DNA from: a virus
Direction: 5' to 3' (one strand)
DNA length: 50,115 nucleotides
IMG/VR virus record: IMGVR_UViG_3300045988_020086
Within the stretch, counting starts at the first letter, position 1, and each line of letters opens with the position of its first letter. The position numbers and the translations under genes were made by a program. The notes below the pieces were generated by a model, which worked only from the letters and a program-made list of their open reading frames with translations, ran no database searches and had not been told where the DNA came from. Shown here one piece after another: positions 1-49,783 of the stretch.

Positions 1-141
1 ATTTCCGAACGTCCATCTTGTAAGCCAGTTTACCACAGATCGGGGGTGATAGTCAAGCGGATACCCCAGCGGGGCCGCACCGCTCAAAGCGGCCCCGCCC
101 CACTACCCCGGCAGCCCGCCGGGGCAAACCTGAAAAGCAAA
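1..141. repeat. Direct terminal repeat (assembly overlap of a circular or terminally redundant genome)
   Basis: nt 1-141 are identical to 49975-50115, giving a unit length of 49,974 bp. Confidence 0.95.
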
Positions 142-155
142 AGGAGATTTGAACC
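57..155 (+). repeat. Early-operon intergenic module, copy 0 (continues from 49951 across the junction)
   Basis: Hairpin GGGGCCGC(71-78)/GCGGCCCC(89-96), then hairpin CCCCGGC(106-112)/GCCGGGG(118-124), then AAAAGGAG-N9-ATG. This copy lacks CACGAAA. Confidence 0.8.
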
Positions 156-503
156 ATGAGAATTTCAAAGAAGATCGCAACCGCCGCCGCTGCTCTGGCA
201 CTTGCCGCCGGGCTGCTGGCCCCCACCGCTGCAGCCGCCTGCCCCTACACCGTCGGCCCTTTGGGGCGGTACATCGCCCCGGCCATTGTGAAAGGCATGA
301 CCGCCACCGATGAAAACCAGATTGAAGTCTGGTGCAGTGACGCGCTGGACGGCGACGACTGGTATTTTCTGGTGGATGCCGAAACCGATCTGCGCATCTT
401 CGACCGGGTCCAGCTGGTTGTGAACGCCAACGGCACCCCGGACGATTTCAGCGACGACACCGTGGAAGATGCCTTTTGGAGCTGCTGCTCCATCGACGAT
501 TGA
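156..503 (+). CDS. Small secreted or lipoprotein-like early protein (115 aa)
   Basis: ATG lies 9 nt after AAAAGGAG. N-terminal signal peptide MRISKKIATAAAALALAAGLLAPTAAAAC with a possible lipobox Cys. Confidence 0.7.
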   Translation: MRISKKIATAAAALALAAGLLAPTAAAACPYTVGPLGRYIAPAIVKGMTATDENQIEVWCSDALDGDDWYFLVDAETDLRIFDRVQLVVNANGTPDDFSDDTVEDAFWSCCSIDD

Positions 504-618
504 CCCCCGCCGGACACCTTAGCAGGGCCGCACCGTAAAGCGACCCCGCCCCACTACCCCGGCAGCCGCCGGGAGATCATCCCGAACACCAACCACAACA
601 CGAAAAGGAGCAAGTACC
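504..618 (+). repeat. Early-operon intergenic module, copy 1
   Basis: CGGACAC..AGCAGGGCCGCACCG-AAAGCG.CCCC hairpin, CCCGGCAGCCGCCGGG hairpin, CACGAAA at 599, AAAAGGAG-N8-ATG. Confidence 0.85.
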
Positions 619-1662
619 ATGAAAGGCATGAGCAATAATCAGATCATCCTCAGCGAGGCCGAGAAGCTGGCCCCCGCCACCCTGCACGCCATCGCCACCG
701 CACACCACACCGCCGCCCAGATCGAAGCCCTGGCCGCTCAGATCACCGTGACTGAGGACGACGGCACCCAGCACCCCGGCACCACCCACGACGCGGAGAT
801 CATGTTGGCAGCCAGCGAGCTGCACACCTTCGACTACTGGAAGAAGGAAGGCAAGAGCGTCAAGCTCCACGAAAAGGCACTGATTGAATGCTACTTGTGG
901 AAGTACACCACGAAACCCAGCAAGGCCCAGCGGGAAGCGGCAGAGGCCGAAGGCAAGGAAGCTGCCCCCGATCCGCATTACTACCCGACAAAATCCCACC
1001 TGTTCAGCTGCCTGCAGGTGCAGGACAGCAAGCCCGCCCCCGCTGGCCGGTTCAGCTCCACCGCTGAGATCATCGCCTATAACAAGAAGCTGGCAGCCGA
1101 ACGCAAGGCCGCCGCAAAAGCAGCAGCAGAGCAGGCCGACACAAAAAACGCGCTGGACGTTCTCAAGCAGACGGAATGCAAGGCAAAGGCCGCTTTTCTG
1201 GCCGTGCCTGAAACCGACCGCAAAGCGCAGGCCGAAGCCCTCAGCGCGTGGCGCAAAGCCCGGCAGGATATAGCAGCCGCCGAGAAGCCCGCAGAGCCCA
1301 CCACGAAACCCGCCCCGGAGATCATCCCCGCCGGCGTGACGGACAAGAAGCCGGGCGGCTGGAAGAAGTGCAGCTTTTACGCTATCTGCACCACTCCGCA
1401 GAATCCCACCAACCACGCGGAGAAGCGGGACGGCTACACCGACGGCGTTTTCAACTACTACGCGCTCCACCTTGGCAAAGCCACGATCTGGTACGCCGTT
1501 CACCCTGCCTACGGTGTCAGCATCGGCCCCGGCCAGAACAGCCGGAGCGCAGCCAAAACCGCAGCGTTTGAACTTCTCGAATCCGTCGCAAAGATGGAGA
1601 AAACCCCCAGCGAACGCCTGAAGAACTGCGCCGCAATGGTCGCCGCCGCACAGAATGCGTGA
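619..1662 (+). CDS. Early protein of unknown function (347 aa)
   Basis: Strong RBS, long ORF, Ala/Lys-rich linker. The segment TFDYWKKEGKSVKLHEKA weakly recalls ArdC-N/DUF1738-type ssDNA-binding domains (unverified). Confidence 0.75.
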   Translation: MKGMSNNQIILSEAEKLAPATLHAIATAHHTAAQIEALAAQITVTEDDGTQHPGTTHDAEIMLAASELHTFDYWKKEGKSVKLHEKALIECYLWKYTTKPSKAQREAAEAEGKEAAPDPHYYPTKSHLFSCLQVQDSKPAPAGRFSSTAEIIAYNKKLAAERKAAAKAAAEQADTKNALDVLKQTECKAKAAFLAVPETDRKAQAEALSAWRKARQDIAAAEKPAEPTTKPAPEIIPAGVTDKKPGGWKKCSFYAICTTPQNPTNHAEKRDGYTDGVFNYYALHLGKATIWYAVHPAYGVSIGPGQNSRSAAKTAAFELLESVAKMEKTPSERLKNCAAMVAAAQNA

Positions 1663-1773
1663 ACACAACCCCGGACATCCCAGCAGGGCCGCACCGCCCA
1701 AAGCGGCCCCACCCCACTTCCCACCGGCAGCCCGCCGGGGGCATATCACGAAACATGAAAAGGAGTAAATACC
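1663..1773 (+). repeat. Early-operon intergenic module, copy 2
   Basis: Same two hairpins as copy 1, CACGAAA at 1747, AAAAGGAG-N8-ATG. Confidence 0.85.
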
Positions 1774-1956
1774 ATGAAAAAGTTTAACAACATCTTCGAG
1801 CAGATCAACGTGGAACTCCCCGCACTGTGGAAGATCCAGACCCTGCGCACCGAAATTCGGCTCAGCCCCTGCAAGGCCGCGGAACTTCAACCGCAGATCG
1901 ACGCGGCCCGGCTTACCGTCATCTGTGCCCGCCGCGGCTACCTGTACACCGCCTGA
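1774..1956 (+). CDS. Small early protein (60 aa)
   Basis: RBS AAAAGGAG-N8-ATG; flanked by modules on both sides. Confidence 0.6.
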   Translation: MKKFNNIFEQINVELPALWKIQTLRTEIRLSPCKAAELQPQIDAARLTVICARRGYLYTA

Positions 1957-2064
1957 CCCACCGCCGGACACTCTAGCAGGGTTGCACCGCCCAAAGCAGC
2001 CCCGCCCCATCGCCCCGGCAGCCCGCCGGGGAGCATACCACGAAACGAAAAGGAGATGCACACC
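1957..2064 (+). repeat. Early-operon intergenic module, copy 3
   Basis: Hairpin 1 is GGGTTGC(1979-1985)/GCAGCCC(1996-2002), i.e. changes on both arms that keep pairing. CACGAAA at 2039. Confidence 0.85.
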
Positions 2065-2637
2065 ATGACAGCATATCAACAGACCCACCAGCGCACCGCA
2101 TGGCTCCACTACGAGGGCAGCGACTACAACGGGCGGCAGATCGTCGTGGACGTGGCCGAGATCACCCCGGGCCGCTTCACCGTCGCCGCACTGGATGCCG
2201 AAGGGAACGAGATCGAGAGCGACGAGGTGGAAGACCTGGACACCGCCCGCCGCCTGTATGGGGAACTGTTCCGCCGCCTCACCGAGAAGCCCGCCACGAA
2301 ACCGCTTTCCGGCAAATACGCCAAGCTGCGGGATGACCTGCGGGCCGCGCTGGAAGCCGGACGCAACGCCGAACACGAAAACCCGGAAGACGGCGGCACC
2401 TGTAACTTTGATTCCGTCGCCCTCAGTCTTCCCCGCTGGCAGGCGGCAAAGGTGGAGCAGGCCGCCAAGGAAGCGGGCACGAGCTGCTTTTCTTGGGACC
2501 TGTTCGGGGGCCGTCGGTGGGTCTTCGGGCCGGACACCAGAGCGCAGGGCAACGCCCGCACACGAAACGCCGAAGCAATGACCCGGGCACTTGCCGGGAT
2601 GGGCTATCAGGCCATGGACTATTGCCAGATGGATTAA
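2065..2637 (+). CDS. Early protein of unknown function (190 aa)
   Basis: The start was moved to the second ATG (MTAYQQ), 9 nt after AAAAGGAG, because the track start at 2056 abuts the RBS. Acidic N-terminal half; C-terminal GTCNFDS..QGNARTRNAEAM segment. Confidence 0.7.
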   Translation: MTAYQQTHQRTAWLHYEGSDYNGRQIVVDVAEITPGRFTVAALDAEGNEIESDEVEDLDTARRLYGELFRRLTEKPATKPLSGKYAKLRDDLRAALEAGRNAEHENPEDGGTCNFDSVALSLPRWQAAKVEQAAKEAGTSCFSWDLFGGRRWVFGPDTRAQGNARTRNAEAMTRALAGMGYQAMDYCQMD

Positions 2638-2739
2638 ACGGACACCTTGACGGGCCGCACCGCAAAGCGACCCGATCCCACCGCCCCGGCAGCCCGCCGG
2701 GAGTATCACGAAATCCAACACGAAAAGGAGATACACGAA
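2638..2739 (+). repeat. Early-operon intergenic module, copy 4
   Basis: Same two hairpins; three CACGAAA copies (2707, 2719, 2734); AAAAGGAG-N9-ATG. Confidence 0.85.
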
Positions 2740-3675
2740 ATGCGTACTTACACCATCAACGAATCTGCCGCCCGCCTCTCTCACGAAATGCGGTCCTTCG
2801 ACGACTACGAGAAGGGCAGCGCAACCGCTGGCTACAATGCCGACGTTGCCGAGGCTGCCGCCATCCTGGAACGGGTCAAAGCCCTGTGCAGCACCGAGGC
2901 CCAGAAGGAACACGCCGAGTTTCTGTTTGACCGCTACGCCAAGACGCTGGCCGAAGCCATCAACCGAGACAACGAGATCGGCACCCGCTGCCCCAGCGTG
3001 ATGATCTGCGGGGCTGGCAACTTCCCGACCCGGAAGAAGGAGAAGCAGGTCAAAGCATGGGAAGCCAATCACGAAACCTTCCGCAAGGCGGAACACTATC
3101 TTGATCTGCTCAAGACCGCCCACACCCTCACCGTCAAGAGCAATGACCCCGAGGTGCTGGACTATCTCCGGGAGAAGCTGGCCGGGCTGGAAGCCGGGCA
3201 CGAAATGATGGTTTCCGCCAATGCCTATTACCGCAAAAACAAAACGCTGGACGGTTTCGATGGCATCCCCGCCGACACTATGGCATGGATCACGAAACCG
3301 AAGGTCTACCCCGCAGGCGGGCGGAACGGCGACGGGTCCCCGCTGCAGTTCCACGGCAAGCCCTTCCCGACCTACGCCCTCAGCAACAGCAACGCCAACA
3401 TCAAGCGGGTAAAGGAGCGGATCACGAAATTGGAAGCCGCCAAAGCCGCCGCCCCGGTGGAAGAAGAGCGCAGCGGCTACACCTACCGGGAAGACACCGA
3501 AGCCATGCGGGTGCAGCTGATCTTCGACGGCAAGCCCGATGACGAGACCCGCGAACTGTTGAAACGGAACGGTTTCCGCTGGTCTCCCCGCAACAGCGCA
3601 TGGCAGCGGCAGCTCACCGCAAACGGAAAGTATGCCGCACATCAGGTGATGGACGTTCTCGACGGCAACGTATAA
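2740..3675 (+). CDS. Early protein with a C-terminal GFRWSP module (311 aa)
   Basis: ATG lies after the RBS (the track start at 2647 is a TTG inside the module). The C-terminal segment LKRNGFRWSPRNSAWQRQL resembles the GF(R/K)W(S/A)P module of DUF3560-type proteins from mobile elements (recollection, unverified). Confidence 0.7.
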   Translation: MRTYTINESAARLSHEMRSFDDYEKGSATAGYNADVAEAAAILERVKALCSTEAQKEHAEFLFDRYAKTLAEAINRDNEIGTRCPSVMICGAGNFPTRKKEKQVKAWEANHETFRKAEHYLDLLKTAHTLTVKSNDPEVLDYLREKLAGLEAGHEMMVSANAYYRKNKTLDGFDGIPADTMAWITKPKVYPAGGRNGDGSPLQFHGKPFPTYALSNSNANIKRVKERITKLEAAKAAAPVEEERSGYTYREDTEAMRVQLIFDGKPDDETRELLKRNGFRWSPRNSAWQRQLTANGKYAAHQVMDVLDGNV

Positions 3676-3794
3676 CACGAAATCGGACACTCTGGCAGGG
3701 CAAGCACCGTAAAGCAGCCCCGCCCCACTACCCCGGCAGCCGCCGGGAGATCATCCCGAACACCAACCATAACACGAAAAGGAGCTGTCACGAA
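3676..3794 (+). repeat. Early-operon intergenic module, copy 5
   Basis: Near-identical to copy 1 over its 3' half; CACGAAA at 3676, 3773 and 3789. Confidence 0.85.
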
Positions 3795-4064
3795 ATGAAA
3801 CTGAAAGAGACCCGCATTCTGGACGCTGAGGGCGCACGTTACGCCTGCATTGCCAATAACTACTGCACCCGGTGCGATTGTGAAGAATACGACCGCATCT
3901 TGAACGATGCAGCCGAGAGCAGCCGCAAGCCGGGCGGCATCACGGCGGACGATCTGGCCCGCATCGCCGAGGCCATCAAAGCCCGCAGCGAAACGGACGA
4001 CGATGTGCCCGCCATCGCCTTTGCGCTGTCCCGCCGCACCGTCTCCCACTTCACCGAAGCCTGA
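3795..4064 (+). CDS. Small early protein (89 aa)
   Basis: AAAAGGAG-N10-ATG; internal start of track ORF 3600..4064. Confidence 0.65.
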   Translation: MKLKETRILDAEGARYACIANNYCTRCDCEEYDRILNDAAESSRKPGGITADDLARIAEAIKARSETDDDVPAIAFALSRRTVSHFTEA

Positions 4065-4104
4065 GCCGCCGCCCAGCACGAAACACGAAAGGAAGGATTC
4101 GAGT

Positions 4105-4323
4105 ATGAAAACCTATACCCGCCACAGCATTGCAGGATGGGACGTTTACACGGACGATGAAACCGGGCGCGTCCACCATCTCGTTGACCCGGATTCCAAC
4201 GACCCGCGCACCCTGTATCCCTACATTCCCGCCGCCGGGGGTGGATGGGATAACGCCTGCGGCAGTCTGACGCTCTCCGCCCTGCGCGGCCGCATGGCAC
4301 GAAACACCATCCGCTTTGCCTGA
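4105..4323 (+). CDS. Small early protein (72 aa)
   Basis: RBS GAAAGGAAGG-N8-ATG; internal start of track ORF 3907..4323. Confidence 0.6.
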   Translation: MKTYTRHSIAGWDVYTDDETGRVHHLVDPDSNDPRTLYPYIPAAGGGWDNACGSLTLSALRGRMARNTIRFA

Positions 4324-4331
4324 TTTCTGCG

Positions 4332-4358
4332 CCCCGGCCACCCGCCGGGGATTTTGTG
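4332..4358 (+). terminator. Intrinsic-terminator-like hairpin inside the early block
   Basis: CCCCGGC-CACCC-GCCGGGG followed by ATTTTGT. Confidence 0.5.
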
Positions 4359-4389
4359 GGATTCCACACGAAATCTTTCTTGCGTTTTA

Positions 4390-4418
4390 TTGCTTTTCTT
4401 TGCGTTTTGCCCTATCAT
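4390..4418 (+). promoter_or_regulatory. Candidate sigma70-type promoter for the distal early genes
   Basis: TTGCTT(4390-4395)-17 nt-TATCAT(4413-4418) in an AT-rich gap after the hairpin. Confidence 0.4.
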
Positions 4419-4464
4419 GGTTGTAACGAAATCCAGTAACAAAAACAGACAAGGAGGTATTCTC

Positions 4465-5349
4465 ATGTATACGATTCCTGCATTTGGCCCTTGGCCTGAA
4501 CAGAACGCCGGACCCGACGAAGAAAAGCGGCTGAACAGTGCCCAGCAGAGCAAGATCAGCCCCACCAGCATTGACCGGGAACACGAAACCGGGGTTTTCT
4601 ACGGCTCCGGCAAGCTGCCCTATCAGACCAGCCTTGCCGCCTGCACCTGCAACGATTTTGTGAAACGGAAAAAGCCCTGCAAGCATATCTATCGCCTTGC
4701 TATGGAGCTTGGGATCATCCCTCTGGACTATAAGACGGGCAGGAGCAGCGGCGAACGGAACGAAGCACAGATCAGCTTTGAGGACAGCATTGCCCTTGTG
4801 GAGCAGCTTTCCGAGGCTGCGCAAAAGCACATCGAAAATATGCTGTACTACACCAGCGATCGGGTAGACGACCGCCAGCGGGCTGTTACCTGCTATGATC
4901 TCGATCTCGCCGATGAACTGCGCACGTCGCCCCTGCTGCACGAAAATCCTTACCCCCTGGCCGAACAGCTTTCTAAGCTCTCGAAACCAGCTTTGGTAAT
5001 GACCTTGGATGCCATCCACCGCGATGACAAGCCCCGCCGCAACGCCGCCAAAGACAAAATTGCGGCATGGATCGCCGAAAACGTGCCCATGCTGGCAAAC
5101 GAGCTGCCGCCATGTGTGTCCTTCTCCTTCGTGGAGGTGTTCGACAAGGCCCAGCGGGACGTTTACAAGTATCTGCGCCGCAAGTATGAGATGGAAACAG
5201 ACTGGTGCACCGGGCTTGAATATCCCGCCGGGGCAGGTCTCCCCAACGAAAACGAACTTGTGTTTTACTTCCCGGAAGATCGTGTGACTGCCGCTCTCAC
5301 GAAATACGGCTGCAATCGCTGCCTGCATGGGTACATCCCCACGAAATAA
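4465..5349 (+). CDS. SWIM-type zinc-finger protein (294 aa)
   Basis: RBS AAGGAGG-N7-ATG. CxC..CxH signature CTCNDFVKRKKPCKHIYRL. Confidence 0.7.
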   Translation: MYTIPAFGPWPEQNAGPDEEKRLNSAQQSKISPTSIDREHETGVFYGSGKLPYQTSLAACTCNDFVKRKKPCKHIYRLAMELGIIPLDYKTGRSSGERNEAQISFEDSIALVEQLSEAAQKHIENMLYYTSDRVDDRQRAVTCYDLDLADELRTSPLLHENPYPLAEQLSKLSKPALVMTLDAIHRDDKPRRNAAKDKIAAWIAENVPMLANELPPCVSFSFVEVFDKAQRDVYKYLRRKYEMETDWCTGLEYPAGAGLPNENELVFYFPEDRVTAALTKYGCNRCLHGYIPTK

Positions 5350-5352
5350 ACT

Positions 5353-5847
5353 GTGCAAAAATGCACATTGGCGGCTAAGAATGCCATTTCCGCATATTTA
5401 ACCCGCTTTTTTGATACAAAACCTACAATTTATGGACTTAACTGCCCAAAAGGAGGTATTTCTACGAACGACGCAGAGTTTTTCGCCCCGTGGCGGCTGG
5501 TTGCCGCCTTTGCAGACGGCTCCCGCCTGACCTTCGACGGATTGACCGAAGAACAGGCCAAGGACGCAATGGAGGCCGCCCAGGAAGAGCACGGCGATAT
5601 TGGCTACTGGAACCGGGTCACGGATCAGAACTACGAGGACGGCAGATACTACAAACTGATTCCCGAGCCGCCCGCCGTGCATATCGTGGACTTCACCGGG
5701 TACGATGGGTCACTTGACGAGAACGGTTTCCCCGTCGGGCTGCCGGACGAGATTGCCCGGTATGCACAGGAGCAGGGAGCCGCCCCGGATGCCCCGCAGA
5801 TCATCCTCAAGCGCAACGCGCCCAACGAAAAGGAGGACAAGCAATGA
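5353..5847 (+). CDS. Hypothetical early protein; start uncertain
   Basis: The track start is GTG inside the palindrome TGTGCAAAAATGCACA. A strong AAAGGAGG at about 5449 has no canonical in-frame start close behind it. Confidence 0.5.
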   Translation: MQKCTLAAKNAISAYLTRFFDTKPTIYGLNCPKGGISTNDAEFFAPWRLVAAFADGSRLTFDGLTEEQAKDAMEAAQEEHGDIGYWNRVTDQNYEDGRYYKLIPEPPAVHIVDFTGYDGSLDENGFPVGLPDEIARYAQEQGAAPDAPQIILKRNAPNEKEDKQ

Positions 5848-6122
5848 GCCACATTCTCCCGGAAGCTCAATCGGTTATTGACCAACTGAAGCACGACTTT
5901 GTAAAAAACTGCACCCCTGCCTTGGAGCAATTCCAGCTGGATCAGAACGTACAGCAGGCGGAAGCTGCCGTGAAGCTAAAATATTGCATGATGCACGGTC
6001 TTTCTCCCGATGAAGTCACCGTGTCCAGTAGCGAAGACGAACACGGTGTCCGCACCTTCACCATCACCGAAACCCCATCCACGCAAATGGTTGACATAAC
6101 CTTTACCGTCCCCACAGAGTAA
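5844..6122 (+). CDS. Small early protein (92 aa)
   Basis: ATGA overlap with the upstream stop; last gene before the terminator. Confidence 0.6.
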   Translation: MSHILPEAQSVIDQLKHDFVKNCTPALEQFQLDQNVQQAEAAVKLKYCMMHGLSPDEVTVSSSEDEHGVRTFTITETPSTQMVDITFTVPTE

Positions 6123-6125
6123 CGA

Positions 6126-6158
6126 AAAGCCCGCCGGGTCCATGACCTGACGGGCTTT
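6126..6158. terminator. Bidirectional terminator between the convergent blocks
   Basis: AAAGCCCG...CGGGCTTT stem with T-rich flanks on both strands. Confidence 0.6.
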
Positions 6159-6165
6159 CTCAATT

Positions 6166-6669: not shown

Positions 6670-7197
6670 CTATAAGAGAATATCACCTTCAACCCATGCG
6701 TCAGCCCGGGGCAGGGTCTCGCGCACGTTATACGCGCGTGATAGTAAGGCGGGGCACTCGGGCAGCCGTTCCATGCCCCGGCCAAAGGCCAGCAAAGCCA
6801 CGTTCCGAAGCCGTTTCAAATGCTGGATGCTGTATCCCGCATCGACCTGCACTTCTGCCCATTTTTTGTGGCCGATGTAGTATTCTGTCAGGATCAGATT
6901 GTGGACACTGTCCAGGCGGTCAATTTGTCCCCGAATCAAAGCCTCGTCGGACTTCAAAAGAGCCTGCTGACGTTCCAGACTGCGCAGCCTGTCGCCAATG
7001 CCCAGATCATCCATCTTGCAAGCCATCGCCGCGGTGCTGTCACCGGGCAGCCCGCCGCCGGGCATACCGTCCATGTTGATGCCTTTCAGCGTGTCTACTT
7101 CGTCGTCCAGAGTGGCACACTGGCGGCGGATGATCGTAAGCCGACGGGGAATATCTGCGCAGTATTTCAAAATTGCTTCCGCCTCGTGTGTCTTCAT
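6670..7197 (-). CDS. Sigma-70 region-4-like / DUF1492-ArpU-like transcription regulator (candidate late activator)
   Basis: INMDGMPGGG motif followed by the HTH-like segment ILTEYYIGHKKWAEVQVDAGYSIQHLKRLRNVALLAF. Confidence 0.6.
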   Translation of the reverse strand: MKTHEAEAILKYCADIPRRLTIIRRQCATLDDEVDTLKGINMDGMPGGGLPGDSTAAMACKMDDLGIGDRLRSLERQQALLKSDEALIRGQIDRLDSVHNLILTEYYIGHKKWAEVQVDAGYSIQHLKRLRNVALLAFGRGMERLPECPALLSRAYNVRETLPRADAWVEGDILL

Positions 7198-7215: not shown

Positions 7216-7839
7216 TTAAAACTCGCTGCCGAAGATGGGGCCTTGCCCGTTCACCCGCTCAACCATAGCCCCCACGCCGTAGATGTCCTCCACCACACGG
7301 CGCAGCTTCTCGTAAGCCACCATCTCGCCATCTTCGGACCACCCAAGGAACTGCTCGAAGTTTGAGCAGGTCTCCTGCATGACAGCGGCAATCTGCTCCA
7401 CGGTATAGCTCATGTCGTGCAGGGCTTCCACGCAATACCGGGCCACCATGTCGGCAGCATCCCGGCGTTCGGCAAGGATTTCCCGCTCATTGGCCGTCTT
7501 GCCCAGCTTGCCCGCCGGGAGTAAGAACCGCTCAACCATCAGCGGCGTGGTGCGGTCTTCCAGTGCAATGCGGGCTTTCCGTGCCCCCCGTTTGTCCCGG
7601 TCAAGGGTGTACCGTTCCGCTGCATTGTTCATCTTGACGGTCAGGACAGCGGCGTTTCCTGCGTCGAAGTTCAGAATGTCGCGCGCCGCTGCTACAAAGC
7701 AGTAGGACACGACCTGCCCAATAGCTTCCCGGTTCAGCGATGCCGCCGTTTTGGTTTTGCCCAGGTTGATTTGCCGATTCACGGCGTTCTGGATGCTCTG
7801 TCGGTAGTACGAGGGCACCCTTGCTCTGCTTTTGCCCAT
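7216..7839 (-). CDS. Hypothetical protein (207 aa)
   Basis: Start at MGKSRA after GGGAAAGGAA. Confidence 0.6.
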   Translation of the reverse strand: MGKSRARVPSYYRQSIQNAVNRQINLGKTKTAASLNREAIGQVVSYCFVAAARDILNFDAGNAAVLTVKMNNAAERYTLDRDKRGARKARIALEDRTTPLMVERFLLPAGKLGKTANEREILAERRDAADMVARYCVEALHDMSYTVEQIAAVMQETCSNFEQFLGWSEDGEMVAYEKLRRVVEDIYGVGAMVERVNGQGPIFGSEF

Positions 7840-8366
7840 GATGATTCCTTTCCCGCCTGGTCTGCCAGGCGTTTCCACTCCTTGATTTCAGTTTTCGTAT
7901 CGGTGGTGATGATTTCCCGGAACACATAGCCCCGCGGCTCTGCGATCAGGTCAATAAACAGCCTGCGACGGTAGATGTAATCCCTCTGCGCCCGCCGGGT
8001 GAATTTTGACTTAATTTCCACCACTTCCACCGTTCCGTCGGCATATTCCAGCACATAATCCGCCGTATACCTTGCCGCCGGGAGATGAACAGCGCAGAAA
8101 TCCTTTGCGGGCAGCAAAGGAAAGGCAACGTGCGGCGTTGCCTTGATGATCCTGCCGGACTGGATGCCCGGCAGTACCGTGCCAATGTAAAAATCATACT
8201 CGCCCTTGCTCTCGAAGGTTTTCCCGATCTCCCCGGCAGCCTTGGCCGCTGCTTCCAGCGATACCGCCCCTACCGGGGCTTTCCGTGCGCATCGAGCGGC
8301 TATTTGCTTCTCCGCCTGGGCACGATACCGGGGCGGCAGGTCTTCCAGTTCCAGTCTCGCACTCAC
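7779..8366 (-). CDS. DUF1064-like (putative PD-(D/E)XK nuclease / resolvase-like) protein
   Basis: GTG start 6 nt after AGGAGGAA, with a GTGA overlap on the Rep stop. Motif pattern ESKGEYDFY..YTADYVLEY..VEVVEIKS. Confidence 0.65.
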   Translation of the reverse strand: MSARLELEDLPPRYRAQAEKQIAARCARKAPVGAVSLEAAAKAAGEIGKTFESKGEYDFYIGTVLPGIQSGRIIKATPHVAFPLLPAKDFCAVHLPAARYTADYVLEYADGTVEVVEIKSKFTRRAQRDYIYRRRLFIDLIAEPRGYVFREIITTDTKTEIKEWKRLADQAGKESSWAKAEQGCPRTTDRASRTP

Positions 8367-9202
8367 GGCTGATTCCTCCTGTTCTTGTTCTTCGGTGGTT
8401 CCTTGCGGTATAGGCTCACGATCAGGTGACGGGTAGAGTTGCCCGTGATGGTGACTTCGCACCGATGCAGGGTATACCCCGGATACATCCGTTCCCAGTA
8501 CGCCCGGTCTTCCAGACAGTTTTCACACACGTCCTTGAGCTTCGATCGGCTCATTTTGTTGTCGTTCGGCCTGGGCATTTTTGGCGGCTGCAGGCCGTGG
8601 CTCTGCCGCCAGTGCCGTTTGCAGCGGCGGTTCTTCACGATATACCGGGCAAGGCTCTCCACGCTGTTGTGGTCGAAGTGCAGCGGCTCACACCGGGCCA
8701 TTCCCCGGCCATTCCACGCCTGTTCTACCATTTCCCGGGTCAGCCCCGCCGGGTGCGTCATAATGACATGGTGATGGTGCCGCCCCAAAACTTCACCTGT
8801 TACAGGGTCCACAGTGCAATACTCCGTCACCACGACCCACTTTGGACGCTGGATGCCCTGTTTGTCGCAAAGGCGGTACAGCTTCTTGATTGCATTGGAG
8901 AAATCCCGGTCAGCCCGGGCAAGGTCATTTGGGGCAGGGTGATGATCGTCGTCGTAGGTGTATGTAACCGAGAAATCACCGGGCCGGAAGTTCGTATTTA
9001 CCAGCAGAACCAGGTAGCGGCCAGATTTGCGGAGGTTGTAGGCTTCCTTCGCCAGACTGGTGGCGAGTTCTTTCTTCCGCCGGGTGCTGGCCTTATGCTC
9101 TTTCTCGGAGACCTCGAAAAACTCCGCCTGCATGGTTGGCGCAGTGGCATAATCTTTGCCGCAGATGTATTTCTGTTCTCTGACATAAAAGCCGCTGCCC
9201 AT
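8363..9202 (-). CDS. HUH-superfamily rolling-circle replication initiator (Rep_1/pC194-like motif set)
   Basis: ATG lies 10 nt after GGAAGGAGGA. Motif 1 FSVTYTY, motif 2 GRHHHHVIM, motif 3 LARYIVKN (YxxK). Confidence 0.7.
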   Translation of the reverse strand: MGSGFYVREQKYICGKDYATAPTMQAEFFEVSEKEHKASTRRKKELATSLAKEAYNLRKSGRYLVLLVNTNFRPGDFSVTYTYDDDHHPAPNDLARADRDFSNAIKKLYRLCDKQGIQRPKWVVVTEYCTVDPVTGEVLGRHHHHVIMTHPAGLTREMVEQAWNGRGMARCEPLHFDHNSVESLARYIVKNRRCKRHWRQSHGLQPPKMPRPNDNKMSRSKLKDVCENCLEDRAYWERMYPGYTLHRCEVTITGNSTRHLIVSLYRKEPPKNKNRRNQP

Positions 9203-9339
9203 ACCCACTACGTCCTCCTTCCCGTAAACGTCCAATTTGCTGAATAAAGGCCAAGCCGCCAGCCGCCCGGGAACTTTTATGCTTGCCCCCGCCCCCGCTC
9301 CGGCAAGCTCTGCTGTCCGTTACGCCCTACTACCGCGGG

Positions 9340-9437
9340 GAGACAATACAGGGGGTTCCCCCTGTACCCCCGTCACGGGAACGGCTGCTTCTAATCAAGC
9401 TCTAAGCAAACTTTAAGCAAGCCGCTGCTCCCGTGTC
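9340..9437 (-). promoter_or_regulatory. Candidate double-strand origin (nick-site hairpin region)
   Basis: 9-bp hairpin TACAGGGGG-TT-CCCCCTGTA. Next to it, an imperfect 17-bp inverted repeat (9362-9378 / 9411-9427) flanks an AT-rich loop. On the - strand the loop carries CTTGATTA (9389..9382). Confidence 0.5.
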
Positions 9438-9536
9438 CCTTAGTTTATCCTCGGTATACAAGCCCCTTGCCGCCTCGTCAGGGCGGCAATTTTACGACGG
9501 GCTTGCTTATTCTCTGGAAACGACTTCAACCTGTAG

Positions 9537-9746
9537 TCACTTCAAAACGAAGCTGTTGAGATAGGGCAGCACCTCGCCGCCGCAGTTGGACACAATCAGA
9601 TAGAAGTTCTTTTGGAAGACGTGGAAGTAAAGAGCGTTGCTCACGTCCTTCGATCCTTCGGTGCGCTGCTCCTGAATCATCCGGGTTGCCTGGTTCCGGG
9701 ACAGCCCCATGCCCATCAGGAGCTTTTTCATTCTCTTGGTTGTCAT
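9537..9746 (-). CDS. Small hypothetical protein (69 aa)
   Basis: ORF with ATG start, co-oriented in the gene train. Confidence 0.5.
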   Translation of the reverse strand: MTTKRMKKLLMGMGLSRNQATRMIQEQRTEGSKDVSNALYFHVFQKNFYLIVSNCGGEVLPYLNSFVLK

Positions 9747-9747
9747 T

Positions 9748-9930
9748 TCAGTTTACCTCGTAGTCTTCAATGCCGTTTTTGTCCGTCCGCTTTTCCCAGT
9801 GTTCGCAGCTGTCCTCAACGTCGGTGACATCGGTGCAGTTCAGCGACAGGCCATTGAAGCAGACCCATGTATACTCCTCATGCCAGCGGCAGTTACAGCA
9901 AATTTTTTCAGGTCCCATGTTTTCCACCAT
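9748..9930 (-). CDS. Small Cys-rich protein; start uncertain
   Basis: Internal start MVENMGPEKICCNCRW. Confidence 0.4.
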   Translation of the reverse strand: MVENMGPEKICCNCRWHEEYTWVCFNGLSLNCTDVTDVEDSCEHWEKRTDKNGIEDYEVN

Positions 9931-10123
9931 TCCAGAATCCATCCATTGCCTCCCGGTACGCTTTGAAGCAGTCCGGGCACAGATCGCCAACGCCACAGAT
10001 TCTTTCGCAATCAAGTGCCCATCCGTCCAGCTGTTTGCTGTCATACTTTCCGTCGTCGAACCGCTCTGCAAATACCTGCTTGCGGCAGCGGTTGCAGATG
10101 AACATTGCGCCGTTCTTTCTCAT
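9908..10123 (-). CDS. Zinc-ribbon small protein (71 aa)
   Basis: CNRC...CPDC pairs; GAGG RBS. Confidence 0.55.
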   Translation of the reverse strand: MRKNGAMFICNRCRKQVFAERFDDGKYDSKQLDGWALDCERICGVGDLCPDCFKAYREAMDGFWNGGKHGT

Positions 10124-10132
10124 GTAAATACC

Positions 10133-10378
10133 TCACACATGATGCTGTATTTTTCCTCCGACCCCGAGCGGCCTTTTCCCGTACATTGCACGGCATTGCG
10201 GGCAAAGGTCAATTACTCTTGGATACTTCAAAGGGAATCCGTTGAAATCGGTGGTCACTTCCCAATCAGTCACCCAGTCCTGCGTTGTCAGCATATCCTG
10301 AAACCCACCCTCAAGCTGTTCCTGAAATGCAACTCTCCTGCATATATCGCAAAATATAGCCTTGAACATCTTTTGCAT
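10133..10378 (-). CDS. Zinc-ribbon small protein, paralog-like (81 aa)
   Basis: Start MQKMFKAIFCDIC after GGGAGGTG; CDIC...CPQC pairs. Confidence 0.55.
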   Translation of the reverse strand: MQKMFKAIFCDICRRVAFQEQLEGGFQDMLTTQDWVTDWEVTTDFNGFPLKYPRVIDLCPQCRAMYGKRPLGVGGKIQHHV

Positions 10379-10379
10379 A

Positions 10380-10895
10380 TCAGCACCTCCCGCACTTTGC
10401 GCACTTGCCATCACAGGTATGCTTTCCCTCGGTGGGTGCCTCGTACAGCTGCACCATCGGCTGCGGCTGGTCCGAACGGTTGAGCGGCTTGTCATACTGA
10501 ACCGTGTAGTCGCCCTTCGGGTTATCGTGCCATGCCAGAGCGTGACGGATCGCAAGCCAGATCTGTTCTGCCCGGTACGGGATTCTCATGCAGTAATCAA
10601 GCGGAGCGGAAAGGACGTATCTCTTGTACAGCTTGTCCACTTCCTCCTGCATGATGTTTCGGCGGTCAATCGAGATATGGAAGATTTCATCCCGTTCCTC
10701 TTTGCCGTCAAATGAATCATTTTCCAGCGCAGCATAGAACTTTGCCATGCAAAGCTCGTCAATCAGGTCTTCAAATTGCCCCAGATGCAGACGGAGGTAC
10801 ATCTCGCAGGCTTTTGCCACTGCCTCAGCCACCGGGCGGCTCATGGTGATGGTGACGGTTTCGATTTCTGCCGGCGCACTCTTTTTCTCGTCCAT
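10380..10895 (-). CDS. Hypothetical protein (171 aa)
   Basis: Start MDEKKS just after the upstream stop; C-terminal CDGKCAKCGRC. Confidence 0.55.
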   Translation of the reverse strand: MDEKKSAPAEIETVTITMSRPVAEAVAKACEMYLRLHLGQFEDLIDELCMAKFYAALENDSFDGKEERDEIFHISIDRRNIMQEEVDKLYKRYVLSAPLDYCMRIPYRAEQIWLAIRHALAWHDNPKGDYTVQYDKPLNRSDQPQPMVQLYEAPTEGKHTCDGKCAKCGRC

Positions 10896-10899
10896 GTCG

Positions 10900-12201: not shown

Positions 12202-12211
12202 GCTTTTTACC

Positions 12212-12832: not shown

Positions 12833-12844
12833 GTCGATTCCTTT

Positions 12845-46940: not shown

Positions 46941-46964
46941 TTATGACCCCTCCGTTTTCGAGCA

Positions 46965-49413: not shown

Positions 49414-49629
49414 TTAGCCCCCTTCTTCCCCGGATTCCGCCGGGGTGAATCCATCACGGGCCATTCTTTCGGCGCAAGCCTGCAAGATATAGGCCTGCAC
49501 ACTCTGTCCAGCCGCCGCCGCTGCTGCCCGGATTTCTCCGCCCCGATCTTTCGAGGGTCGAATCTGGATTGAATCGCATTTTGCAATATATCGGCTATTT
49601 GTGATTTTCTTTTTCTCCGAGATTGGCAT
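49414..49629 (-). CDS. Ribbon-helix-helix (CopG/Arc-like) DNA-binding protein, candidate early-operon repressor
   Basis: IQIRPSKDRGGEIRAAAAAAGQSVQAYILQACAERM fits a beta-alpha-alpha RHH. RBS AGAGGTG. Divergent from the early promoter. Confidence 0.65.
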   Translation of the reverse strand: MPISEKKKITNSRYIAKCDSIQIRPSKDRGGEIRAAAAAAGQSVQAYILQACAERMARDGFTPAESGEEGG

Positions 49630-49680: not shown

Positions 49681-49776
49681 GCATTCCGCCATGCAAAAAT
49701 CAACAAGCATTCCGTCATGTTTTTGTGCAAAACGTAGAAAGCATTCCGTCATGCTTGACAGTGGCATTCCGTCATG
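49681..49776 (+). promoter_or_regulatory. Four direct operator-like repeats GCATTCCG(C/T)CATG
   Basis: Copies at 49681, 49707, 49741 and 49764. The last two bracket the -35 and fill the spacer of the early promoter. Confidence 0.75.
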
Positions 49777-49783
49777 CTAAGAT
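49755..49783 (+). promoter_or_regulatory. Early promoter
   Basis: TTGACA(49755-49760)-17 nt-TAAGAT(49778-49783). Confidence 0.7.

What the first reader, a model, noticed from the sequence alone, without database searches (positions are those of the whole stretch)
599..5346. Strand-specific heptamer CACGAAA occurs 27 times in 4.7 kb of the early operon, in all three codon phases
By eye I count CACGAAA on the + strand at 599, 909, 1302, 1747, 2039, 2295, 2374, 2561, 2707, 2719, 2734, 2782, 3070, 3199, 3291, 3423, 3676, 3773, 3789, 4077, 4084, 4298, 4367, 4582, 4939, 5298 and 5340. I found only three more in the other ~44 kb (28309, 40275, 44148), and I saw no TTTCGTG on the + strand of this block. 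A given 7-mer is expected less than once in 4.7 kb.

Twelve copies lie in intergenic DNA close to ribosome-binding sites. The other fifteen lie inside five different CDSs in all three phases: CAC-GAA (His-Glu) six times, xxC-ACG-AAA (Thr-Lys) seven times, and xCA-CGA-AAx (Arg-Asn) twice. The constraint therefore acts on the nucleic acid, not on the proteins.

If packaging starts near the terminase genes and proceeds through them, this block would be packaged last and injected first. Candidate roles are:
- a Chi-like anti-exonuclease signal
- an array of binding sites for an early regulator or an RNA-binding / antitermination factor
- priming signals on ssDNA displaced during rolling-circle replication
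- a modification motif

I know of no described phage element with this signature.
Basis: partly seen in the sequence, partly recalled or inferred. Interest (0 to 1): 0.85.

Follow-up and report, generated by a model that had tools for sequence, protein, structure and literature searches.

The report
Oriented heptamer array in phage operon
A gut-bacterium (Faecalibacterium) phage carries 28 same-strand copies of CACGAAA in a 4.7 kb early operon, a signal conserved across a whole phage clade and created partly by changing protein sequences; it is not the host's recombination hotspot, and what reads it is still unknown.

Summary
Local background models expect 0.4-3 copies. The 16 copies inside genes exceed synonymous-codon shuffles (4.0±1.4).

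The window is a circular Faecalibacterium phage genome related to FP_Toutatis and Lelie. About 48 related viral loci carry the same one-strand enrichment (9-32 copies). About 24 sister loci have a homologous operon but only background counts. In the enriched lineage, amino-acid replacements created motif sites.

The spacers between genes are Rfam RAGATH-5 RNAs; relatives also carry twister-sister and pistol ribozymes. In nearly every spacer the heptamer lies between RAGATH-5 and the ribosome-binding site.

The Chi idea fails: the motif is at expectation in 1.1 Mb of host DNA.

My best reading (about 0.45) is an RNA-level leader signal of a ribozyme-segmented early anti-defence operon that has spread into coding sequence. 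The factor that reads it is unidentified. Single-stranded-DNA, replication and protein-array readings are not excluded. I found no published description.

The parts
49414..49629 (-). Divergently transcribed 71-aa ribbon-helix-helix-like gene, the probable repressor of the operon
   Evidence: ORF and translation. Weak NikA-like (RHH) Pfam hit. Homologues in both the motif-rich and motif-free phage groups.
49681..49776 (+). Four operator-like repeats GCATTCCGYCATG (49681, 49707, 49741, 49764) overlapping promoter P1
   Evidence: Read from the sequence. GCATTCCG is also repeated in sister-group loci.
49755..49783 (+). P1, sigma-70-type promoter-like site TTGACA-17-TAAGAT with TG, the start of the + strand operon
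   Evidence: Promoter scan, 10/12 match.
57..109 (+). RAGATH-5 RNA motif (RF02685), copy 1; no heptamer follows it
   Evidence: 69.9 bits, gathering score 50.
156..503 (+). g1, a 115-aa secreted/lipoprotein-like protein; its CDS carries the motif in only 1 of ~55 relatives checked
510..560 (+). RAGATH-5 RNA motif, copy 2
   Evidence: 72 bits.
599..605 (+). CACGAAA, intergenic, fused to the ribosome-binding site (CACGAAAAGGAG)
619..1662 (+). g2, 347 aa, phrog_34979, function unknown
868..874 (+).
909..915 (+). CACGAAA in g2, phase 2 (Thr-Lys)
1302..1308 (+). CACGAAA in g2, phase 2
1671..1723 (+). RAGATH-5 RNA motif, copy 3
   Evidence: 63.2 bits.
1747..1753 (+). CACGAAA, intergenic, 24 nt after RAGATH-5 and upstream of the ribosome-binding site
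1774..1956 (+). g3, 60 aa; found only in the motif-rich group (group A)
1964..2016 (+). RAGATH-5 RNA motif, copy 4
   Evidence: 68.7 bits.
2039..2045 (+). CACGAAA, intergenic leader
2065..2637 (+). g4, 190 aa, function unknown
2295..2301 (+). CACGAAA in g4, phase 2
2374..2380 (+). CACGAAA in g4, phase 0
2561..2567 (+). CACGAAA in g4, phase 1 (Arg-Asn)
2638..2687 (+). RAGATH-5 RNA motif, copy 5
   Evidence: 67.8 bits.
2707..2740 (+). Three CACGAAA copies (2707, 2719, 2734) in the g5 leader; the last overlaps the start codon (CACGAAATG)
2740..3675 (+). g5, 311 aa. Its C-terminal part resembles plasmid genes annotated DUF3560; Pfam scan of g5 itself found no family. PHROG label 'primase' is unverified
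2782..2788 (+). CACGAAA in g5, phase 0; made by an amino-acid change relative to sister-group orthologues (AKQMR to SHEMR)
3070..3076 (+). CACGAAA in g5, phase 0 (NMENF to NHETF)
3199..3205 (+). CACGAAA in g5, phase 0 (AHALM to GHEMM)
3291..3297 (+). CACGAAA in g5, phase 2 (WITRP to WITKP)
3423..3429 (+). CACGAAA in g5, phase 2 (RIETL to RITKL)
3676..3682 (+). CACGAAA immediately after the g5 stop codon
3683..3734 (+). RAGATH-5 RNA motif, copy 6
   Evidence: 64.3 bits.
3773..3795 (+). Two CACGAAA copies (3773 fused to the ribosome-binding site; 3789 overlapping the g6 start codon)
3795..4064 (+). g6, 89 aa
4077..4090 (+). Two abutting CACGAAA copies (4077, 4084) in a 40-nt spacer that has no RAGATH-5
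4105..4323 (+). g7, 72 aa, with CACGAAA at 4298 (phase 1)
4332..4350 (+). Terminator-like hairpin CCCCGGCCACCCGCCGGGG followed by ATTTTGT; probable end of the first transcription unit
4367..4373 (+). CACGAAA between that hairpin and candidate promoter P2; conserved in relatives
4390..4418 (+). Candidate promoter P2, TTGCTT-17-TATCAT, with a weak -35
   Evidence: Read by eye only. It is below the scan's threshold, so this is an inference.
4465..5349 (+). g8, a 294-aa SWIM zinc-finger protein with a SAP/FAN1-like fold; carries CACGAAA at 4582, 4939, 5298 and 5340
   Evidence: Pfam SWIM. AlphaFold2 pLDDT 91.7. Foldseek FAN1 probability 1.0, E 7e-3. In these loci the SWIM signature was found only in phages with 19 or more exact copies. 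Its CDS motif sites are conserved at 67-72% amino-acid identity.
5353..6122 (+). g9 and g10, the last genes of the operon; no heptamer here
6124..6165 (.). Hairpin plus T-run at the convergent junction; probable end of the operon
   Evidence: Read from the sequence. Not flagged by the scan, so this is an inference.
7216..7878 (-). 207-220-aa all-helical protein (phrog_24484), present in 42 of 48 motif-rich loci and 0 of 24 motif-free loci; a candidate partner by co-occurrence only
   Evidence: No PDB fold or sequence match.
8363..9235 (-). HUH rolling-circle replication initiator (PF23343, REP_ORF2-G2P), with palindromes upstream at about 9300-9470
   Evidence: The sister group has a 24%-identical homologue.

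Best explanation
CACGAAA is most likely a cis-acting signal read on the sense transcript of the phage's repressor-controlled early operon.

The operon's cistrons are separated by RAGATH-5 RNAs, and in relatives by twister-sister and pistol self-cleaving ribozymes. Its genes include families typical of plasmid leading regions, which suggests an anti-restriction role (inferred).

In the ancestral state the heptamer is a leader element. It sits as one to three copies between the RAGATH-5/hairpin module and the ribosome-binding site, sometimes overlapping the start codon. In the lineage of this window it has multiplied by point mutation into coding sequence, including through amino-acid replacements. 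Each processed mRNA from g2 to g8 therefore carries several exposed copies, while the g1, g9 and g10 coding sequences carry none.

I infer that a sequence-specific RNA-binding or RNA-cleaving factor recognises the single-stranded heptamer. The number of copies per mRNA would then set the translation, stability or timed shut-off of these early messages, in the way T4 RegB uses GGAG in early mRNAs.

Shown: the enrichment, its strand specificity, its conservation across a clade, its position relative to known RNA motifs, selection for the motif, and that it is not over-represented in the host.

Inferred: that the level of action is RNA, the direction of the effect, and that a dedicated reader exists.
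For: 1. All 28 copies are on the coding strand of the operon. Twenty-seven lie in the probable transcribed span from promoter P1 (49755-49783) to the end near 6160; one (4367) sits between a terminator-like hairpin and a candidate internal promoter.
2. Leader position. In the window, Toutatis, Lelie and locus L014, the first [A/C]ACGAAA lies 12-39 nt after a RAGATH-5 hit and just 5' of, fused to, or 3' of the Shine-Dalgarno sequence. Two copies read CACGAAATG at real start codons.
3. In the Toutatis/Lelie subclade most copies are in 5' UTRs: in Toutatis, 12 of 17 copies are intergenic when motif positions are compared with its annotation.
4. The six motif-free sister loci aligned keep exactly one invariant CACGAAAAY, in a conserved leader element upstream of the g5 homologue. 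They use a different conserved leader, TTTGARAAYTGAATA, before other genes. The heptamer is therefore an old UTR element whose copy number expanded.
5. The operon context is RNA-centred: six RAGATH-5 hits at 63-72 bits here. Twister-sister was found in 7 and pistol in the 8th of 8 sister loci scanned, and twister-sister in one enriched locus.
6. Predicted accessibility. The mean probability that the 7-mer is unpaired is 0.31, against 0.16 for composition-matched 7-mers (P = 3e-5) and 0.08 for all windows.
7. Selection acts on the nucleic acid. CDS copies number 16 against 4.0±1.4 under synonymous shuffles. Five sites in g5 were created by amino-acid replacements. Four g8 sites are conserved where only 22-28% of 7-mer windows are identical. 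Site positions turn over in g2.
8. Exemption is gene-specific: g1 and g9 coding sequences almost never carry the motif in any relative. That fits per-mRNA control after processing better than a regional DNA signal.
Against: - No reader was identified. The only genes that track the motif are an all-helical protein with no fold match and a SWIM/SAP-like protein whose fold suggests DNA binding rather than RNA binding.
- No RNA 5'/3'-end or expression data exist.
- RAGATH-5 has no demonstrated activity that I could find, so 'ribozyme-segmented' is shown only for relatives that carry twister-sister or pistol.
- Copy 4367 lies between a terminator-like hairpin and a candidate promoter, and is predicted to be fully paired.
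- The accessibility result partly follows from the absence of the complementary word on that strand.
- Other phage transcripts do not avoid the motif (21 observed against 20.2 expected), so a strongly destructive reader is not indicated.
- The strand bias fits a single-stranded-DNA or replication-coupled process equally well.
Confidence: 0.45

Rival explanations
1. Replication-coupled single-stranded-DNA signal. The phage starts rolling-circle replication with an HUH Rep. The heptamer array, or its complement TTTCGTG on the displaced strand, serves as priming or loading sites for complementary-strand synthesis, or as binding sites for a single-stranded-DNA protein, in the first kilobases displaced.
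For: - Rep is a PF23343 (ORF2/G2P) HUH initiator with an HHHHV motif.
- Palindromes upstream of rep, at about 9300-9470 on the - strand, are a plausible double-strand origin.
- If the - strand is nicked there, the fork runs leftwards and reaches the block about 4 kb later. The displaced strand then carries 28 copies of TTTCGTG, whose copy would begin 5'-ACGAAA (inference).
- The motif-rich group has its own Rep type, 24% identical to the sister group's.
- Strand specificity and predicted single-strandedness fit.
Against: - The sister group also has an HUH Rep but no array.
- Nothing explains why priming sites would be confined to 4.7 kb of a 50 kb genome, tied to ribosome-binding-site leaders, or absent from the g1 and g9 coding sequences.
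- The nick site and nicked strand are unknown.
- The only 'primase' label (g5) is an unverified PHROG name, and Lelie lacks g5 yet has 14 copies.
Confidence: 0.14
2. Oriented protein-binding array on DNA. A phage protein would coat or mark the early region on DNA. The candidate is the SWIM/SAP-like g8, which has a possible promoter of its own. The purpose could be silencing in lysogeny, protection from nucleases, or acting as a polar barrier.
For: - Across the related loci the g8 SWIM signature was found only in those with 19 or more exact copies that include CDS sites. Motif-rich subclades without it have 9-17 copies, mostly in UTRs.
- The g8 model is confident (pLDDT 91.7), and its best structural matches are FAN1 and SAP-domain proteins, which bind DNA.
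- A heptamer sits just upstream of g8's candidate promoter.
Against: - Double-stranded-DNA binding does not need a single orientation, yet 0 of 28 copies are inverted.
- Spacing is irregular, from 7 to 445 bp, with no helical phasing.
- A 39%-identical SWIM homologue in other prophages, in a cI-SWIM-NYN RNase-integrase module, has no heptamer enrichment nearby.
- The co-occurrence is confounded by shared ancestry.
- The Toutatis/Lelie clade has the array without g8.
Confidence: 0.1
3. Chi-like anti-exonuclease array. The heptamer would be the host AddAB recognition sequence, clustered to protect the rolling-circle tail or the entering genome end.
For: - Orientation would be correct for an enzyme entering from the rep/origin side, where the + strand ends 3' at a break to the right of the block (inference).
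- From my own knowledge, correctly oriented Chi protects rolling-circle plasmid multimers, and phage P1 is rich in oriented Chi.
Against: - In 1.109 Mb of Faecalibacterium chromosome around thrS (80 metagenome contigs), CACGAAA occurs 50 times and TTTCGTG 34 times, against 35-83 expected. The two words rank 5369 and 10490 of 16233. That is 0.076 per kb for both strands together, against 5.9 per kb on one strand in the block.
- Other host flanks (the ksgA-ftsEX region and the trpS side) hold no or almost no copies.
- The motif is not enriched elsewhere in these phages or in sister phages of the same host genus.
- Caveat: the host sample is one orthologous ~20 kb region in many strains plus two smaller regions, not whole genomes.
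Confidence: 0.04
4. Modification or defence-related motif. The heptamer would be the target of a DNA or RNA modifying enzyme, or of a host defence nuclease, with the array acting as a preferred substrate or decoy.
For: - The block encodes leading-region-type anti-restriction functions in relatives, for example a 540-aa N6-adenine methyltransferase with DUF4942.
- The phage also has C5 and N6/N4 methyltransferases.
- Asymmetric 5-7 nt sites are typical of Type III, Type IIL and BREX-like systems (my own knowledge).
Against: - Phages usually avoid such sites rather than accumulate them.
- Nothing links any of these enzymes to this word.
- The window's own block lacks the DUF4942 methyltransferase yet has the densest array.
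- There are no methylome data.
Confidence: 0.07

Closest known systems
T4 RegB target sites (GGAG in early-mRNA translation initiation regions)
   Same: Both are short sequence words concentrated in the transcripts of a phage's early genes, largely at ribosome-binding regions with some intracistronic copies. In T4 the word lets a phage factor treat early messages as a class (my own knowledge of RegB). Here the word sits next to or over the Shine-Dalgarno sequence or start codon in nearly every leader.
   Different: Here the word is 7 nt, is not the Shine-Dalgarno sequence itself, and was created inside CDSs by amino-acid replacements. No RegB-like nuclease was found. Cleavage is not shown.
Chi sites (RecBCD/AddAB) and Chi clusters on phages and rolling-circle plasmids
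   Same: Both are strand-specific, orientation-dependent 5-8 nt words whose effect depends on direction of travel. Both can be clustered on mobile DNA.
   Different: A defining feature fails: there is no over-representation in the host chromosome sample. The density, one per 170 bp confined to 4.7 kb, and the tie to ribosome-binding-site leaders are unlike Chi.
Ribozyme-rich phage gene arrays (RAGATH motifs, twister-sister, pistol; Rfam RF02685, RF02681, RF02679)
   Same: The host operon of the heptamer is such an array. There are six RAGATH-5 hits here and twister-sister or pistol in relatives, all on the coding strand between small genes of unknown function.
   Different: The heptamer lies outside the RAGATH-5 model, 12-39 nt downstream. 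It also occurs in CDSs. It is absent, apart from one copy, from sister arrays that have the same RNA motifs. It is therefore an added layer and not part of the catalogued motifs.
Unidirectional asymmetric restriction sites (for example the EcoP15I CAGCAG sites of T7) and oriented translocase guides (KOPS, SRS)
   Same: All share complete strand polarity of a short asymmetric word.
   Different: Those are genome-wide orientation biases at or near chance density. This is a 30-70-fold local enrichment. No matching enzyme is known here.

Membership tests
Chi (AddAB/RecBCD hotspot) | The word is over-represented several-fold in the host core genome. | tested here: not met
   50 and 34 copies in 1.109 Mb of Faecalibacterium DNA against 35-83 expected; ranks 5369 and 10490 of 16233 7-mers. 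Other host flanks hold almost none.
Chi (AddAB/RecBCD hotspot) | Orientation matches nuclease entry from a DNA end. | tested here: inconclusive
   The orientation is compatible if a double-strand end arises on the rep/origin side. The genome ends and the nick site are unknown.
Chi (AddAB/RecBCD hotspot) | The word attenuates AddAB degradation. | not testable with these tools
   This needs a biochemical or plasmid-multimer assay.
RAGATH-5 RNA (RF02685) | The sequence and structure match the Rfam covariance model above the gathering score. | tested here: met
   This holds for the intergenic modules: six hits at 63.2-72 bits against a gathering score of 50. It does not hold for the heptamer, which lies outside the 53 model positions.
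RAGATH-5 RNA (RF02685) | The hairpin is maintained by compensatory changes. | tested here: inconclusive
   2 of 16 predicted pairs show double changes among the six copies; most pairs are invariant.
RegB-type early-mRNA target motif | The motif is concentrated in early transcripts at translation initiation regions. | tested here: met
   Leader position next to or over the Shine-Dalgarno sequence or start codon in the window and relatives. Only 3+1 copies lie outside the block. That the operon is 'early' is inferred from its repressor-controlled sigma-70-type promoter.
RegB-type early-mRNA target motif | A phage-encoded sequence-specific endoribonuclease is present. | tested here: not met
   No nuclease or RNA-binding family was found among the block proteins or the group-specific proteins that were scanned. 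Structure and sequence searches against solved structures were uninformative for phrog_24484. An unrecognised enzyme or a host enzyme remains possible.
RegB-type early-mRNA target motif | Cleavage or decay occurs at the motif. | not testable with these tools
   This needs RNA-end mapping.
Hammerhead ribozyme core (CUGANGA ... GAAA) | A CUGANGA box is paired with the C-GAAA-C element. | tested here: not met
   CTGANGA occurs at chance frequency (24 observed against 25 expected), with only 3 + strand copies in the block. There are no hammerhead Rfam hits.
Iteron, operator or centromere heptad arrays (for example omega-protein heptads) | Copies are contiguous or regularly spaced in a short non-coding region. 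| tested here: not met
   Spacings of 7-445 bp with no period; 16 of 28 copies lie in CDSs. Unrelated viral contigs with regularly spaced CACGAAA are tandem repeats or triplets.

The most novel reading that the evidence does not exclude
The most novel reading is a new kind of phage post-transcriptional code. A 7-nt word would mark the individual mRNAs released from a ribozyme/RAGATH-5-segmented anti-defence operon for a dedicated, still unknown reader. Selection for the number of copies would be strong enough to rewrite protein sequences. This would also give the first functional handle on what RAGATH-5, twister-sister and pistol arrays in gut phages are for.
Probability: 0.3. Interest if true: 0.85.

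Novelty: new variant of a known kind. Interest (0 to 1): 0.72.

Why it matters
Gene arrays in gut-phage genomes punctuated by twister-sister, pistol and RAGATH RNAs have been catalogued for about a decade. As far as I know and could find, they have no assigned biological role.

This clade offers a natural experiment. Sister phages have homologous operons and the same RNA motifs, but differ by a 10-30-fold expansion of one heptamer. That expansion is visibly under selection, to the point of changing amino acids.

If the word is an RNA-level signal, it gives a directly testable handle on how such operons are processed and timed: mutate the heptamers, map RNA ends, and pull down the binding factor. 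It may also reveal a new sequence-specific RNA-binding or RNA-cleaving protein. If instead it acts on single-stranded DNA, it would be a new replication or protection signal for rolling-circle tailed phages.

Either way it is a strong, clean, conserved signal in abundant phages of a key human gut commensal.

Tried and rejected
1. **Host Chi.** Rejected on 1.1 Mb of Faecalibacterium DNA. My first host sample turned out to be largely prophage DNA and was discarded.
2. **Hammerhead half-site (C-GAAA-C).** No CUGANGA partner and no Rfam hit.
3. **Peptide repeat in the 1037-codon antisense ORF.** The motif positions fall in all three residues modulo 3, by arithmetic on the coordinates.
4. **A complementary phage small RNA.** The only UUUCGUG-encoding site on the + strand, at 26557, is inside a tail gene. 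The DUF3800-VIII RNA has no complement.
Lelie has no g5 homologue yet has 14 copies. Other phages with g5 homologues show no enrichment.
6. **A SWIM protein as a sufficient reader.** Prophages with a 39%-identical homologue have no enrichment.
7. **Strict replacement of twister-sister or pistol by the heptamer.** One motif-rich locus, L040, has a twister-sister ribozyme.
8. **Avoidance of the motif in other phage mRNAs.** None was seen.
9. **Collection-wide scans for 2-3 clustered copies.** Only relatives of this phage showed dispersed arrays.
10. **Structure and sequence searches for phrog_24484.** Nothing was found. A defence-system scan of block proteins also found nothing.
11. **Literature.** No paper on RAGATH-5 function was held, and none mentioned the heptamer in the Toutatis or Faecalibacterium phage papers.

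Full report
**1. Observation**

An exact search finds CACGAAA 28 times on the + strand between 599 and 5346. There are three further + copies (28309, 40275, 44148) and one - strand copy (26557) in the rest of the window. The block has no TTTCGTG on its + strand.

Whole-window dinucleotide shuffles give 7.9±2.9 for both strands, against 32 observed. The block has an unusual composition (A 25%, C 33%, G 27%, T 15%; AT skew about +0.3), so I also used local models. Markov orders 0-3 fitted to 1-6122 expect 0.7-3.1 copies, or 0.3-0.8 when the motif is masked before fitting. Orders 4-5 approach the observed number only because the motif dominates their parameters.

CACGAAA is the commonest 7-mer in the block by twofold, and single-mismatch variants are rare. 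Sixteen copies lie inside CDSs: phase 0 seven times, phase 2 seven times, phase 1 twice. Ten are intergenic and two overlap start codons as CACGAAATG. Synonymous-codon shuffles of the ten genes give 4.0±1.4 CDS copies (maximum 8 in 1000) and codon-order shuffles give 0.7±0.8. Across 254 unique contexts from relatives, the flanks carry almost no information, apart from A at -2 in about half the sites and few G at +1.

**2. What the window is**

The last 141 bases repeat the first 141, so this is a circular contig of about 49,974 bp. It is a Faecalibacterium phage related to FP_Toutatis and Lelie. It has:
- myovirus-type tail genes, a reverse transcriptase gene, two DNA methyltransferases and an IS30-like DDE recombinase;
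- a rolling-circle HUH Rep, an endonuclease, a sigma-like late activator and terminase genes.

Almost everything is encoded on the - strand. The block is the exception. It is a + strand operon that starts at a sigma-70-type promoter (TTGACA-17-TAAGAT, 49755-49783). The promoter is embedded in four GCATTCCGYCATG repeats next to a divergent ribbon-helix-helix gene. The operon runs across the contig junction to a hairpin at about 6124-6165. A terminator-like hairpin at 4332-4350 and a weak candidate promoter at 4390-4418 (by eye) may split it into two transcription units.

The proteins are mostly orphans. The 2740-3675 gene has a C-terminal part resembling plasmid genes annotated DUF3560, next to ardC-labelled genes in some records. 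In relatives the same slot holds a 540-aa N6-methyltransferase with DUF4942. The 4465-5349 gene encodes a SWIM zinc finger. From my own knowledge, this gene content resembles the anti-restriction 'leading regions' of conjugative plasmids.

**3. The intergenic repeats are a catalogued RNA family**

Rfam finds six RAGATH-5 (RF02685) matches on the + strand at 63-72 bits against a gathering score of 50. They lie at 57-109, 510-560, 1671-1723, 1964-2016, 2638-2687 and 3683-3734. Each is followed by a second GC hairpin, then the heptamer or heptamers, then AAGGAG and the start codon.

Related loci carry RAGATH-5 at the same places. Twister-sister was found in 7 of 8 motif-free sister loci scanned and pistol in the eighth. 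One motif-rich locus also has twister-sister. The block is therefore one of the ribozyme-rich phage gene arrays from which the RAGATH motifs were originally defined (my own knowledge of the 2015 Breaker-laboratory survey; I could not retrieve the paper). The heptamer lies outside the RAGATH-5 model.

**4. Comparative evidence**

Two protein-seeded scans of IMG/VR returned 74 loci.
- **Group A.** About 48 loci carry 9-32 + strand copies against 0-3 on the other strand. As in Toutatis (17 against 1) and Lelie (14 against 2), the copies sit in the homologous block.
- **Group B.** About 24 loci have a homologous operon with only 0-4 copies and no alternative enriched word. They share the operator word, the RAGATH-5 modules, and homologues of g1, g2, g5 (62-76% amino-acid identity), g6 and g9.

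Within group A the picture is graded. The Toutatis/Lelie subclade has 9-17 copies, mostly in leaders, with AACGAAA and CACGAAT also raised. The subclade of this window has 19-32 exact copies, including many in CDSs.

Evidence for selection:
- At the five CDS sites in g5, group B orthologues encode different residues: AKQMR against SHEMR, NMENF against NHETF, AHALM against GHEMM, WITRP against WITKP, and RIETL against RITKL. Whichever way the change went, motif sites and protein sequence are coupled here. I read this as gain in group A, because B retains only the single leader copy.
- The four g8 sites are retained at 67-72% protein identity, where only 22-28% of 7-mer windows are identical (P about 2-6e-3 for the loci covering all four sites).
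- Sites in g2 turn over between lineages (868, 909, 987, 1110, 1137, 1259, 1302). Density is therefore maintained as well as position.
- g1 and g9 coding sequences almost never carry the motif.

Every group B locus examined keeps one invariant CACGAAAAY, in a conserved element in the leader of its g5 homologue. Group B uses a different conserved leader, TTTGARAAYTGAATA, before other genes. The heptamer therefore looks like an old leader element whose copy number exploded in one lineage.

**5. What tracks with the motif**

Genes present in group A and absent from B within the sampled ±10 kb are:
- a 207-220-aa protein, phrog_24484 (42 of 48 loci against 0 of 24);
- the A-type Rep (B has a 24%-identical HUH homologue);
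- the SWIM protein g8 (33 against 0);
- some small block genes.

The phrog_24484 model is all-helical (pLDDT 74.5) and has no PDB match by fold or by profile. The g8 model is confident (pLDDT 91.7). Its best matches are FAN1 (probability 1.0, E 7e-3, about 160 columns) and SAP-domain proteins. The g8 SWIM signature was found only in loci with 19 or more exact copies. But a 39%-identical homologue in other prophages, in a cI-SWIM-NYN RNase-integrase module, has no enrichment nearby.

**6. Tests of the candidate roles**

*Chi.* I fetched 80 metagenome contigs around Faecalibacterium thrS, 1.109 Mb in total. The seed was a host flank next to an integrated relative. CACGAAA occurs 50 times and TTTCGTG 34 times, against 35-83 expected under Markov orders 1-5. 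The ranks for over-representation are 5369 and 10490 of 16233. Other host flanks hold none or one. The sample is one orthologous region in many strains plus two smaller ones, but a Chi word would be expected several-fold above chance in any core region. Chi is therefore disfavoured.

*Hammerhead half-site.* There is no CUGANGA partner.

*Small-RNA seed.* I found no complementary RNA gene.

*RNA accessibility.* With a local folding model of the operon transcript, the heptamers have a mean unpaired probability of 0.31, against 0.16 for composition-matched words (P = 3e-5) and 0.08 overall.

*Avoidance elsewhere.* There is none: group A 21 observed against 20.2 expected, group B 12 against 13.3.

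Among the loci returned, only relatives of this phage had dispersed arrays; the rest were tandem repeats or regularly spaced triplets. Other phages with g5 homologues show nothing comparable.

**7. Interpretation**

The following points favour a signal read on the sense RNA:
- strict co-orientation with transcription;
- confinement to the operon;
- the stereotyped leader position between a catalogued RNA motif and the ribosome-binding site;
- the overlap with start codons;
- the conserved single leader copy in the sister group;
- gene-by-gene presence or absence;
- predicted single-strandedness.

Copy number per processed mRNA would set translation, stability or timed shut-off, in the manner of T4 RegB and GGAG (my own knowledge). 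I put this at about 0.45. It is not proven: no reader is identified, RAGATH-5 activity is unknown, and strand bias alone cannot separate RNA from single-stranded DNA.

A replication-coupled single-stranded-DNA role is geometrically possible (about 0.14). Palindromes upstream of rep at about 9300-9470 suggest an origin, and a - strand nick would send the fork leftwards through the block. This role does not explain the tie to leaders or why group B, which also has an HUH Rep, lacks the array.

The other readings rank lower: an oriented DNA-binding array involving g8 (about 0.10), a modification or defence-decoy motif (about 0.07), and Chi (about 0.04).

**8. Novelty and verdict**

The intergenic modules are known (RAGATH-5). 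The heptamer array is not described in the Faecalibacterium phage papers I could read or elsewhere in the held literature. It resembles known kinds of oriented or class-marking oligomers, namely RegB sites, Chi and unidirectional restriction sites. It fails the testable defining feature of Chi and lacks the RegB enzyme. I therefore file it as a new variant of a known kind, with a real chance of being something more distinctive.

It is a clean, conserved, selected and experimentally tractable signal in abundant gut phages. Interest: 0.72.

Noticed in passing
window 1-141 and 49975-50115: The two ends of the window are identical over 141 bases, so the window is a circularly closed contig of about 49,974 bp. 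The operon containing the finding runs across the junction.
   Followed up: yes
window 57-109, 510-560, 1671-1723, 1964-2016, 2638-2687, 3683-3734; loci L048, L058, L064, L066, L071, L073, L040: Six RAGATH-5 (RF02685) RNAs lie between the block genes. Related operons also carry twister-sister (RF02681) and pistol (RF02679) ribozymes. This is a ribozyme-rich phage gene array.
   Followed up: partly
window 48500-49450: A GC-rich non-coding region holds about six iteron-like GCTGATCGGGGCGG repeats, bracketed by a 32-nt inverted repeat (48788-48819 and 49330-49361). It lies between a low-GC lipoprotein-like gene and the RHH gene. It could be an origin, a pac or cos site, or a small inserted element. 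Within the sampled loci it appears only in the motif-rich group.
   Followed up: partly
window 577-3690, - strand: A 1037-codon antisense ORF spans four sense genes. g2, g3, g4 and g5 all start at coordinates equal to 1 modulo 3, and three spacers (111, 108 and 102 nt) are multiples of 3. The antisense ORF is therefore codon-aligned with all four genes. It is probably a shadow ORF of T-poor sense codons, but the shared frame is curious.
   Followed up: partly
window 20175-21233 (-) and about 19985; loci L078-L081: An IS30-like DDE recombinase is a fixed gene of this phage lineage. Homology between Faecalibacterium genome contigs and the window stops at 19985, next to host trpS/thrS in L080. 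It probably serves as the integrase, as reported for phage Lagaffe (PMC5883640).
   Followed up: partly
window about 46950-47140, - strand: An extended -10 (TGGTATAAT), seen by eye, is followed by strong hairpin/terminator-like structures just upstream of the small terminase gene. This looks like a late promoter that needs antitermination or the sigma-like activator encoded at 6670-7197.
   Followed up: no
window about 9300-9470, - strand: Large palindromes lie in the roughly 330-nt non-coding stretch upstream of the HUH rep gene, for example CACGGGAGCAGCGGCTTGCTT...AAGCAGCCGTTCCCGTG and TACAGGGGGAACCCCCTGTA. This is a candidate double-strand origin.
   Followed up: no
window 23193-24443 (-) and 21409-21474 (-): A reverse transcriptase (RVT_1) sits next to tail-fibre genes. 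It is probably a diversity-generating retroelement, as described for Toutatis-like phages. A DUF3800-VIII sRNA (RF03075, 67.6 bits) is also present.
   Followed up: no
loci L479-L484, about 9300-13200: Other Faecalibacterium-type prophages carry a conserved lysogeny-module cassette: cI-like repressor, SWIM protein (39% identical to g8), NYN-domain RNase, then tyrosine integrase. It may be a prophage-encoded defence or regulatory pair.
   Followed up: no
loci L048, L058, L064 and others (group B leaders); L048 9941-10022: Sister-group operons use a different conserved pre-RBS leader, TTTGARAAYTGAATA. They also have a conserved element, AGGGCnnCACGAAAAC...GCCCU...GCGAAACGC, upstream of the g5 homologue. 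That element matches no Rfam family.
   Followed up: partly
L040 15602-15758: One relative has six CACGAAA copies within about 160 nt of an intergenic region, the densest local cluster seen.
   Followed up: no
loci L294, L318, L351, L396 (unrelated high-GC viral contigs): Triplets of CACGAAA spaced exactly 9 nt apart recur at several places in each contig. They look like operator or iteron sites of an unrelated system.
   Followed up: no
L014 11944-13569; L001 4406-6028: In many relatives the block encodes a 540-aa N6-adenine methyltransferase fused to DUF4942. Together with the g5 C-terminal similarity to DUF3560-annotated plasmid genes and a weak, sub-threshold DUF1419 hit, this resembles the gene content of conjugative-plasmid leading regions.
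   Followed up: partly
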